Shown here: positions 1,959 through 2,702 of the stretch, in pieces
How positions within the stretch are numbered: the first letter of the stretch is position 1
How the letters are laid out: each line of letters begins with the position of its first letter
Source of the DNA: a virus
Taxonomy: Duplodnaviria > Heunggongvirae > Uroviricota > Caudoviricetes
Direction: 5' to 3' (one strand)
Length of the DNA: 32,218 nt
IMG/VR virus record: IMGVR_UViG_2534682164_000018
Program-made: the position numbers and the translations under genes
The notes under the pieces: generated by a model
The model's input: the letters and a program-made list of their open reading frames with translations, nothing else
What the model was told of the DNA's origin: nothing
Database searches by the model: none

Positions 1959-2702
1959 ATGAACAGAAAACAATTCATCCAGTCGCATGGTGCTACTTGT
2001 AGTAACTGGACTTGGAGTTGGTCATTTGTGAACCACGACAAGAAAATGGTTATCTTTGGTGCATGGGATGTACAAAAAGAGCAAGAAAGATCAGTCATTC
2101 TGAGGGAGCGGTGGAAAACCAAAGTTGTGGAGGGAAAGGAAAGAAAAAATCTTGGATATATTCAAGCTATTGAACACATTCAATTGATAGCTGAAGGTTA
2201 TGAGCTTTACACGTTTGATATGGAGCAGGGACGAAACGATGAGAATAGAGATGTAGCTGTTATCAAACGGTTCACTCCAAAACTTGAAAAACGTTACCTT
2301 CGGAAAGAAGGAACAGTTTGGTATGCAGACTTTTTACCTAATCCATTTCCAGATGAAATTACCTCACCTGAAAACTACGCTGAGGGTGCAAAAAAGCAAG
2401 TTACAGTAAACTCCTACGAGCGTGATCCAAAAGCACGACAGGCTTGTATTGACCATCATGGTACTTCCTGCGGGTGTTGTGAGTTTAACTTTGAGAAAGT
2501 CTATGGTGAACACGCCAAGGGCTTTATACACGTTCATCATATCAAACCGCTACACACAGTAGGCGAGGATTACGAGGTAAATCCAATTACTGATATGGTT
2601 CCACTTTGTCCAAACTGTCACGCAATGGTACATCGCGGTAACGAAGTATTAAGTGTCGAAAGTTTAAAAGCACTGTTGTTTAAAGACAGCAATAAAATTT
2701 GA
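1959..2702 (+). CDS. McrA-like HNH nuclease (unassigned N-terminal domain plus C-terminal HNH); candidate modification-dependent restriction enzyme
   Basis: C-terminus CGCCEFNF...HVHHIKPLH...NPITDMVPLCPNCHAMVH is a CxxC...HH...N...CxxCH zinc-finger HNH motif in the same arrangement as E. coli McrA (recalled). N-terminal 150 aa unassigned. Confidence 0.65.
   Translation: MNRKQFIQSHGATCSNWTWSWSFVNHDKKMVIFGAWDVQKEQERSVILRERWKTKVVEGKERKNLGYIQAIEHIQLIAEGYELYTFDMEQGRNDENRDVAVIKRFTPKLEKRYLRKEGTVWYADFLPNPFPDEITSPENYAEGAKKQVTVNSYERDPKARQACIDHHGTSCGCCEFNFEKVYGEHAKGFIHVHHIKPLHTVGEDYEVNPITDMVPLCPNCHAMVHRGNEVLSVESLKALLFKDSNKI

What the first reader, a model, noticed from the sequence alone, without database searches (positions are those of the whole stretch)
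1959..2702. McrA-like HNH nuclease in an AT-rich accessory block: candidate modification-dependent restriction or defence gene
The C-terminal zinc-finger HNH motif is intact (CGCC...HVHH...N...CPNCH). The 150-aa N-terminal domain is unassigned and could be a modified-base reader. The gene sits after a 400-bp non-coding spacer and near two membrane-protein genes, in a prophage accessory region where defence genes typically cluster.
Basis: partly seen in the sequence, partly recalled or inferred. Interest (0 to 1): 0.5.

Follow-up and report, generated by a model that had tools for sequence, protein, structure and literature searches.

The report
Prophage nuclease with uncharacterised sensor domain
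A defective prophage (the exact protein is recorded from Shigella sonnei and E. coli) carries an intact, strongly conserved single-gene cassette that joins a McrA-type DNA-cutting domain to an uncharacterised aromatic-rich domain, which other bacteria combine with known modified-DNA readers and other nucleases, so it is most likely a stand-alone restriction enzyme against modified foreign DNA.

Summary
The ORF at 1959-2702 (+, 247 aa) is real. It has a McrA-type HNH domain (Pfam HNH above cutoff; closest solved relative EcoKMcrA) and all zinc and catalytic residues are invariant. dN/dS is 0.05-0.15 in both domains.

The strongest evidence is domain shuffling. The same domain is fused to HNH, PD-(D/E)XK (NOV_C) and GIY-YIG-like nucleases, and sits in tandem with VcaM4I-type EVE, SRA-like and DUF3427-like domains.

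The gene moves as a solitary cassette among prophage cargo regions, 128 plasmids and a Gabija/GmrSD island. None of the eight contexts examined has a nearby methyltransferase.

Best reading: a stand-alone Type IV-like restriction nuclease with a new sensor-domain family. The function is inferred and the target modification is unknown.

The upstream "spacer" is a separately conserved non-coding element tied to the upstream gene, not to this one.

The parts
1959..2702 (+). Complete gene for the 247-aa two-domain nuclease (stop codon included)
   Evidence: ORF listing. Full-length homologues across Enterobacterales, Pseudomonas, Verrucomicrobiota and others. dN/dS 0.05-0.15. The exact protein is on 484 contigs named from Shigella sonnei and E. 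coli.
1947..1954 (+). Shine-Dalgarno-like GAGAGGGA, 4 nt upstream of the ATG
   Evidence: Read directly from the sequence. Conserved in the Enterobacter prophages.
1959..2348 (+). N-terminal domain (aa 1-130): uncharacterised, aromatic-rich, mostly-beta putative target or modification sensor
2085..2284 (+). Hyper-divergent segment inside the N-domain (about aa 43-109, including loops about 53-64 and 87-99)
   Evidence: 55-57% nucleotide identity to the Enterobacter orthologue, against 88-94% on either side. The loops are variable in the family alignment.
2349..2420 (+). Flexible linker (aa 131-154)
   Evidence: pLDDT below 50 for residues 131-154 in the full-length model.
2421..2699 (+). C-terminal McrA-type HNH (beta-beta-alpha-metal) nuclease domain with a CxxC...CxxC zinc site; the Pfam HNH match is aa 171-226 (nt 2469-2636)
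1890..2776 (+). Extent of the mobile single-gene cassette as defined by homology breakpoints in other genomes
   Evidence: Kluyvera homology spans exactly 1959-2776, Pantoea 1890-2648 and Edwardsiella 1949-2641, each with different flanking genes.

Best explanation
The gene encodes a stand-alone, Type IV-like (modification-dependent) restriction endonuclease carried as cargo by mobile elements. The N-terminal 130-residue domain would recognise the target, most probably a modified base in incoming phage or plasmid DNA that the host's own Dam/Dcm-type methylation does not produce. This would probably use an aromatic pocket built from the invariant Trp and Phe residues. A flexible linker tethers the McrA-type HNH domain, which then cuts DNA nearby with a divalent metal, probably as a dimer like TagI and EcoKMcrA. 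In the lysogen this would exclude phages or plasmids that carry the recognised modification. Shown here: the gene is intact and under purifying selection, the HNH is McrA-type with a complete active site, the N-domain is a discrete shuffled module, the gene is solitary and mobile, and no methyltransferase is linked. Inferred: DNA binding by the N-domain, modification dependence, the identity of the modification, dimerisation, and the defence phenotype.
Confidence: 0.55

Rival explanations
1. A modification-independent nuclease used in conflicts between mobile elements. The N-domain would recognise a particular DNA sequence, structure or replication/recombination intermediate of competing phages or plasmids, possibly as a degenerate, catalytically dead PD-(D/E)XK-like DNA-binding fold. 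The HNH would cut there.
Confidence: 0.17
2. An abortive-infection or toxin-type effector. The N-domain would sense a phage protein or small-molecule signal and release a non-specific HNH DNase that kills the infected cell.
Against: No signal-generating partner gene is conserved next to it, and the gene moves alone. The N-domain is combined with DNA-modification readers and not with signalling modules. The N-domain fold hits are DNA-binding readers.
Confidence: 0.1
3. A phage life-cycle nuclease, such as an HNH cofactor of the terminase for cos cleavage, a host-DNA degradation enzyme, or a free-standing homing endonuclease.
For: The gene lies in a prophage. A separate HNH_3/NUMOD4 homing-type gene lies 1 kb upstream at 358-912. 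HNH-terminase partnerships are known in HK97-like phages (my own knowledge).
Against: The gene lies about 8 kb upstream of the small terminase gene (9962) with unrelated cargo in between, and the terminase is GpA/lambda-type with its own nuclease domain. The same gene occurs on conjugative plasmids and at non-phage chromosomal sites. tblastn against 50,697 phage genomes finds only HNH-domain matches and never the N-domain. No NUMOD or other homing-type DNA-binding modules are present.
Confidence: 0.05
4. A decaying, functionless remnant in a dead prophage.
For: The prophage is riddled with IS elements, and the large terminase and a tail gene are split.
Against: The ORF is intact with a good ribosome-binding site. 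It is identical on 484 contigs. All catalytic and zinc residues are retained. dN/dS is 0.05-0.15 against orthologues.
Confidence: 0.03

Closest known systems
EcoKMcrA (E. coli K-12 e14 element; PDB 6ghc)
SRA-HNH enzymes TagI / ScoA3IV / TbiR51I (PDB 6ghs) and the SRA domain of ScoMcrA (5zmm/5zmn)
   Different: There is no Pfam SAD_SRA hit. hhalign against an SRA-like (PF26348) HNH family gives 0.1% probability. Foldseek is not significant. In P0197 the two domains occur side by side as distinct modules.
EVE-HNH enzyme VcaM4I / TspA15I group (PDB 6yex)
   Same: It is a two-domain modification-dependent HNH enzyme, described as preferring 5hmC/5mC DNA (PMC6765204, PMC7897488). Relative P0166 is a VcaM4I-type EVE-HNH (E=2e-49) with the present N-domain added at its N-terminus.
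   Different: The N-domain here is not an EVE domain (no PF01878 hit). It is an additional or alternative module.
YenY4I / McaZI (PUA-like and/or DUF3427 + PD-(D/E)XK DUF3883/NOV_C)
   Same: These show the same principle of one or two sensor domains plus a nuclease. Relatives P0149, P0162 and P0176 join the present N-domain to NOV_C, and P0162 also has a DUF3427-like region. YenY4I is also thought to be prophage-borne (PMC6765204).
   Different: The nuclease class and the sensors differ. The window protein has neither DUF3427 nor PD-(D/E)XK.

Membership tests
Type IV (modification-dependent) two-domain sensor-HNH restriction endonucleases | C-terminal beta-beta-alpha-metal HNH nuclease with intact catalytic His/Asn and zinc-binding Cys residues | tested here: met
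Type IV (modification-dependent) two-domain sensor-HNH restriction endonucleases | No cognate protective methyltransferase linked to the nuclease gene | tested here: met
   No methyltransferase family among the neighbours in 8 distinct contexts or among the window ORFs scanned.
Type IV (modification-dependent) two-domain sensor-HNH restriction endonucleases | A non-catalytic domain that binds a modified base or backbone | tested here: inconclusive
Type IV (modification-dependent) two-domain sensor-HNH restriction endonucleases | Cleavage or restriction only of modified DNA | not testable with these tools
   This needs biochemistry or phage and plasmid challenge.
EcoKMcrA family | The EcoKMcrA-type N-terminal 5mC-binding domain | tested here: not met
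EcoKMcrA family | A McrA-type HNH domain | tested here: met
SRA-HNH family (TagI, ScoA3IV) | Sequence membership of the SAD/SRA domain (PF02182) or the related PF26348 | tested here: not met
   No Pfam hit at E<=0.1. Precomputed Pfam annotations for 120 homologues list only PF01844. hhalign of A2 against A3 gives 0.1% probability.
SRA-HNH family (TagI, ScoA3IV) | An SRA-type fold with a base-flipping pocket | tested here: inconclusive
EVE-HNH family (VcaM4I) | An EVE/PUA domain (PF01878) | tested here: not met
   No hit in the window protein. EVE appears only as a separate extra domain in relatives.
HNH homing endonucleases | HNH_3/NUMOD-type modules, or a location inside or beside a cognate target gene, intron or intein | tested here: not met
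   No such modules are present, in contrast to the neighbour at 358-912, which has HNH_3 plus NUMOD4. The cassette sits in unrelated contexts.
Phage HNH terminase-associated (cos-cleavage) proteins | A small HNH protein encoded next to the terminase genes | tested here: not met
   The gene lies about 8 kb from terS (9962) with cargo genes in between, and it also occurs on plasmids and at non-phage sites.

The most novel reading that the evidence does not exclude
The N-terminal 130-residue domain is a new class of modified-DNA reader that is not homologous to SRA, EVE, DUF3427, winged-helix or EcoKMcrA N-domains. It would be tuned, through its two hyper-variable loops, to a phage hypermodification that Dam+/Dcm+ enterobacteria never make, such as glucosylated 5hmC, a 7-deazaguanine, a Mom-type adenine or a modified thymidine. 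That would add a new specificity to the Type IV repertoire and a new reagent for mapping that modification.
Probability: 0.2. Interest if true: 0.7.

Novelty: new variant of a known kind. Interest (0 to 1): 0.45.

Why it matters
If the inference holds, this is an uncharacterised but widespread family of single-protein Type IV restriction enzymes: 313 clusters at 50% identity, 128 sequenced plasmids, and many enterobacterial prophages. Its sensor domain has no Pfam model and no solved structure. Three things follow. (i) It would add a new modification-reader fold or family to the toolbox used for epigenetic mapping, as MspJI, AbaSI and PvuRts1I are used now. (ii) It would help explain phage and plasmid host-range barriers in Shigella, Klebsiella, Enterobacter and Salmonella, which matters for phage therapy and plasmid epidemiology. 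(iii) It would be another case of a decaying prophage retaining a defence cargo gene. The claim can be tested directly with one cloned gene.

Tried and rejected
1. IscB-like or ncRNA-guided nuclease. This was prompted by the large conserved non-coding stretch directly upstream and a weak NCBIfam 'guided_IscB' hit (12.7 bits against a cutoff of 175). I rejected it. The hit covers the HNH motif only, Rfam finds nothing, and RNAalifold finds only a 9-bp hairpin with almost no covariation. The spacer is also absent upstream of the Kluyvera, Pantoea and Edwardsiella copies. Instead it travels with the orf153-like gene in genomes where no HNH gene follows directly.

2. EcoKMcrA orthology. Rejected because the N-domains are unrelated.

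3. SRA, EVE or RAMA membership by sequence. There are no Pfam hits, and hhalign is negative against an SRA-like family.

4. A two-gene system with the downstream orf157. Rejected because orf157 is absent next to the Kluyvera, Pantoea, plasmid and Pseudomonas copies.

5. Terminase-cofactor HNH and homing endonuclease. See the rival explanations.

6. AFDB fold libraries were unavailable. megablast of the region against E. coli genomes, plasmids and phages found nothing. One context look-up (P0028) returned no record. Literature searches found no characterised member.

Full report

The gene is functional and not a chance ORF. More than 900 database proteins match it, most of the best 120 over their full length. 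The exact sequence is on 484 contigs named from Shigella sonnei and E. coli. Nei-Gojobori dN/dS against the Kluyvera and Enterobacter orthologues is 0.05-0.15 in both domains.

THE N-DOMAIN. Residues 1-130 have no match in Pfam, NCBIfam, PADLOC, PHROGs or PDB sequences, either as a single sequence or as a 21-sequence profile. The precomputed Pfam annotations of 120 homologues also list only PF01844. The domain is nevertheless the most conserved part of the family. Its signature is S-x-G-A-T-C-x-N-W-x-W-S-W-S-F, with further invariant residues F33, G34, W36, W52, Q69, H73, T85, F86 and W121. Modelled alone it gives pLDDT 88 and pTM 0.81, a mostly-beta domain with two helices. In the full-length model a disordered linker (131-154) joins it to the HNH.

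DOMAIN SHUFFLING (the strongest evidence). A profile of the N-domain was searched against 1.84 billion representative proteins. It finds 313 proteins at E<=1e-3 (231 at E<=1e-10), and 27 of the best 150 are longer than 340 aa. I scanned twenty of these. Twelve have an HNH. Four have an EVE domain in tandem (P0136, P0158, P0173, P0179). Three have NOV_C, a PD-(D/E)XK nuclease domain (P0149, P0162, P0176), and the D...E-x-K motif is visible in their sequences. P0162 also has a DUF3427-like region just below Pfam's cutoff (24.7 against 27.7 bits). P0188 carries the GIY-YIG-like MUG113, and P0192 a VWA domain. P0166 is a VcaM4I-type EVE-HNH enzyme (E=2e-49 to PDB 6yex) with this domain added at its N-terminus. 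In P0197 the domain precedes an SRA-like PF26348 domain and an HNH.

One small module recombined with three nuclease classes and with established readers is the pattern described for modification-dependent restriction enzymes (PMC6765204; PMC7641849). In the canonical ~245-aa proteins it is the only non-catalytic domain, so it must provide targeting.

CONTEXT. The window is a lambda-like prophage with a small terminase (9962-10507), a GpA-type large terminase, and portal, head, tail, tape-measure and J-like genes. It is defective. An IS3-family element (10836-12109) splits the large terminase, and an identical-looking copy (27097-28370) lies immediately upstream of the J-like tail-fibre ORF (28345-29796), which appears truncated. 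An IS21-family element lies at 5125-7094 and another IS3-family element at 30703-31901.

In Enterobacter, Pantoea and E. coli relatives the order is: serine integrase, small ORFs, an HNH_3/NUMOD4 homing-type gene, orf153, a non-coding element, variable cargo, then terminase. The present gene lies in the variable cargo. In E. coli AREA_C483 a 74%-identical copy sits 2.2 kb further downstream. In Kluyvera, homology starts exactly at the start codon (1959) and ends at 2776, with different genes on both sides. It is therefore a one-gene cassette.

Elsewhere the gene is found next to repA on an IncFII plasmid and on 128 sequenced plasmids, 95 of them conjugative. In Pseudomonas putida it lies beside Gabija-like OLD-TOPRIM/UvrD genes and a GmrSD_N gene. 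It also occurs in a verrucomicrobial integrative element and alone in Pseudomonas and Edwardsiella chromosomes. None of these eight contexts, nor the window itself, contains a recognisable methyltransferase. tblastn against 50,697 phage genomes finds only HNH-domain matches and never the N-domain. This argues against a core phage function.

MECHANISM. The best-supported reading is a stand-alone Type IV-like restriction endonuclease. The N-domain would recognise a feature of foreign DNA, most likely a modified base held in an aromatic pocket. The tethered McrA-type HNH would cut nearby. The lysogen or plasmid host would be protected from phages or plasmids carrying that modification. The hosts are Dam+/Dcm+ enterobacteria (my own knowledge), so the target is probably not plain Dam or Dcm methylation. 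A 5hmC or glucosyl-5hmC specificity, another hypermodification, or 5mC in a non-Dcm context as for EcoKMcrA are all possible.

Shown: an intact selected gene, a McrA-type HNH, a modular N-domain, solitary mobile-element carriage, and no methyltransferase. Inferred: everything about binding, specificity, oligomeric state and phenotype.

I put 0.55 on this reading. The rivals are a modification-independent inter-element nuclease (0.17), an Abi or toxin-type effector (0.10), a phage life-cycle or homing role (0.05), and a dead relic (0.03).

A 200-bp segment inside the N-domain (2085-2284, loops about 53-64 and 87-99) is only 55-57% identical to the Enterobacter orthologue, while its flanks are 88-94% identical. 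This is compatible with specificity-loop exchange, but it remains unexplained.

THE SPACER. The 463-bp gap (1496-1958) is not neutral. It is 91.8% identical to the Enterobacter prophage with no codon periodicity in its mismatches (12/14/10). Third codon positions of the flanking genes differ at 18% (orf153) and 35% (HNH). It carries five TACGGCA repeats and a perfect 12-bp inverted repeat. A core of about 120 nt (about 1705-1832), containing two AGTACT motifs, recurs at 76-88% identity in 31 E. coli chromosomes and is present in Kluyvera, Citrobacter and Serratia. In the two loci I compared directly, it lies downstream of an orf153-like gene whose protein has diverged to about 20% identity. 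Rfam finds nothing, and RNAalifold finds only a weak hairpin without covariation. It is probably a DNA-level regulatory or recombination element of this prophage family and is linked to orf153. It is not linked to the HNH gene, because it is absent upstream of the Kluyvera, Pantoea and Edwardsiella copies.

COMPARISON AND NOVELTY. The enzyme works like EcoKMcrA, TagI and VcaM4I (a reader plus an HNH, solitary and carried by mobile elements), but it is not a member of any of those families, because the defining N-domains were tested and not met. I found no characterised member in the papers searched. I classify it as a new variant of a known kind: a new sensor-domain family in the two-domain Type IV architecture. 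Interest is moderate at 0.45. A specialist would find it plausible and not startling, but it is widespread, clinically placed, and testable with a single clone.

Noticed in passing
window 1496-1958 (core about 1705-1832); also L004 7538-8000, L017 about 5001-5126, L018 about 5001-5101, L019-L023: The 'spacer' is a constrained non-coding element. It is 91.8% identical between the window and the Enterobacter prophage, with no codon periodicity. It has five TACGGCA repeats and a perfect 12-bp inverted repeat (1504-1515/1530-1541). A core of about 120 nt with two AGTACT motifs recurs in 31 E. coli chromosomes and in Kluyvera, Citrobacter and Serratia. Where checked, it lies downstream of an orf153-like gene that has itself diverged to about 20% identity. 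There is no Rfam hit and no covariation support for an RNA structure. Its function is unknown; it may be a regulatory or recombination site bordering the cargo region.
   Followed up: partly
window 2085-2284: An internal segment of the N-domain coding region is only 55-57% identical to the Enterobacter orthologue, while the flanks are 88-94% identical. This looks like a mosaic or loop-swapped patch covering two variable loops (aa about 53-64 and 87-99), which may determine specificity.
   Followed up: partly
window 358-912 (+): A second, unrelated HNH gene (184 aa) with HNH_3 plus NUMOD4 domains matches PADLOC 'homing endonuclease' models and phrog_59. It is conserved at the same position in the Kluyvera and Enterobacter prophages.
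   Followed up: partly
window 5125-7094 (-), 10836-12109 (-), 27097-28370 (+), 30703-31901 (-): There are four IS insertions: one IS21-family element (IstA/IstB), two apparently identical IS3-family copies, and a further IS3-family element. One IS3-family copy splits the large terminase gene (fragments at 10422-10865 and 12196-13656). The other lies immediately upstream of the J-like tail-fibre ORF (28345-29796), which appears truncated. The prophage is defective, yet the HNH cassette is intact.
   Followed up: partly
window 2785-3258 (+) and 3515-4183 (-): Two small cargo ORFs of unknown function have hydrophobic N-terminal segments (aa 12-34 and aa 2-37). orf157 is conserved next to the HNH gene in Enterobacter but absent in Kluyvera. 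orf222 is conserved in Kluyvera. They may be superinfection-exclusion or Abi-type membrane proteins.
   Followed up: no
L004 11866-14250 (Enterobacter prophage cargo region): The equivalent cargo region of the Enterobacter relatives carries EAL, mSLOG/DUF4326, DUF488 and DuOB genes between the HNH cassette and the terminase. This cluster may be a further defence or nucleotide-modification module, and it suggests that this prophage family has a cargo hotspot.
   Followed up: no
window 1034-1495 (+): orf153 has no family match in any library. Distant homologues of about 155 aa precede the conserved non-coding core in other integrated elements, next to tyrosine or serine recombinases. It may be a DNA-binding regulator acting on that element.
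   Followed up: partly
window 4316-4627 (-): This 103-aa ORF matches phrog_2100 (unknown function, E=4.8e-9) and lies just before the IS21-family insertion.
   Followed up: no
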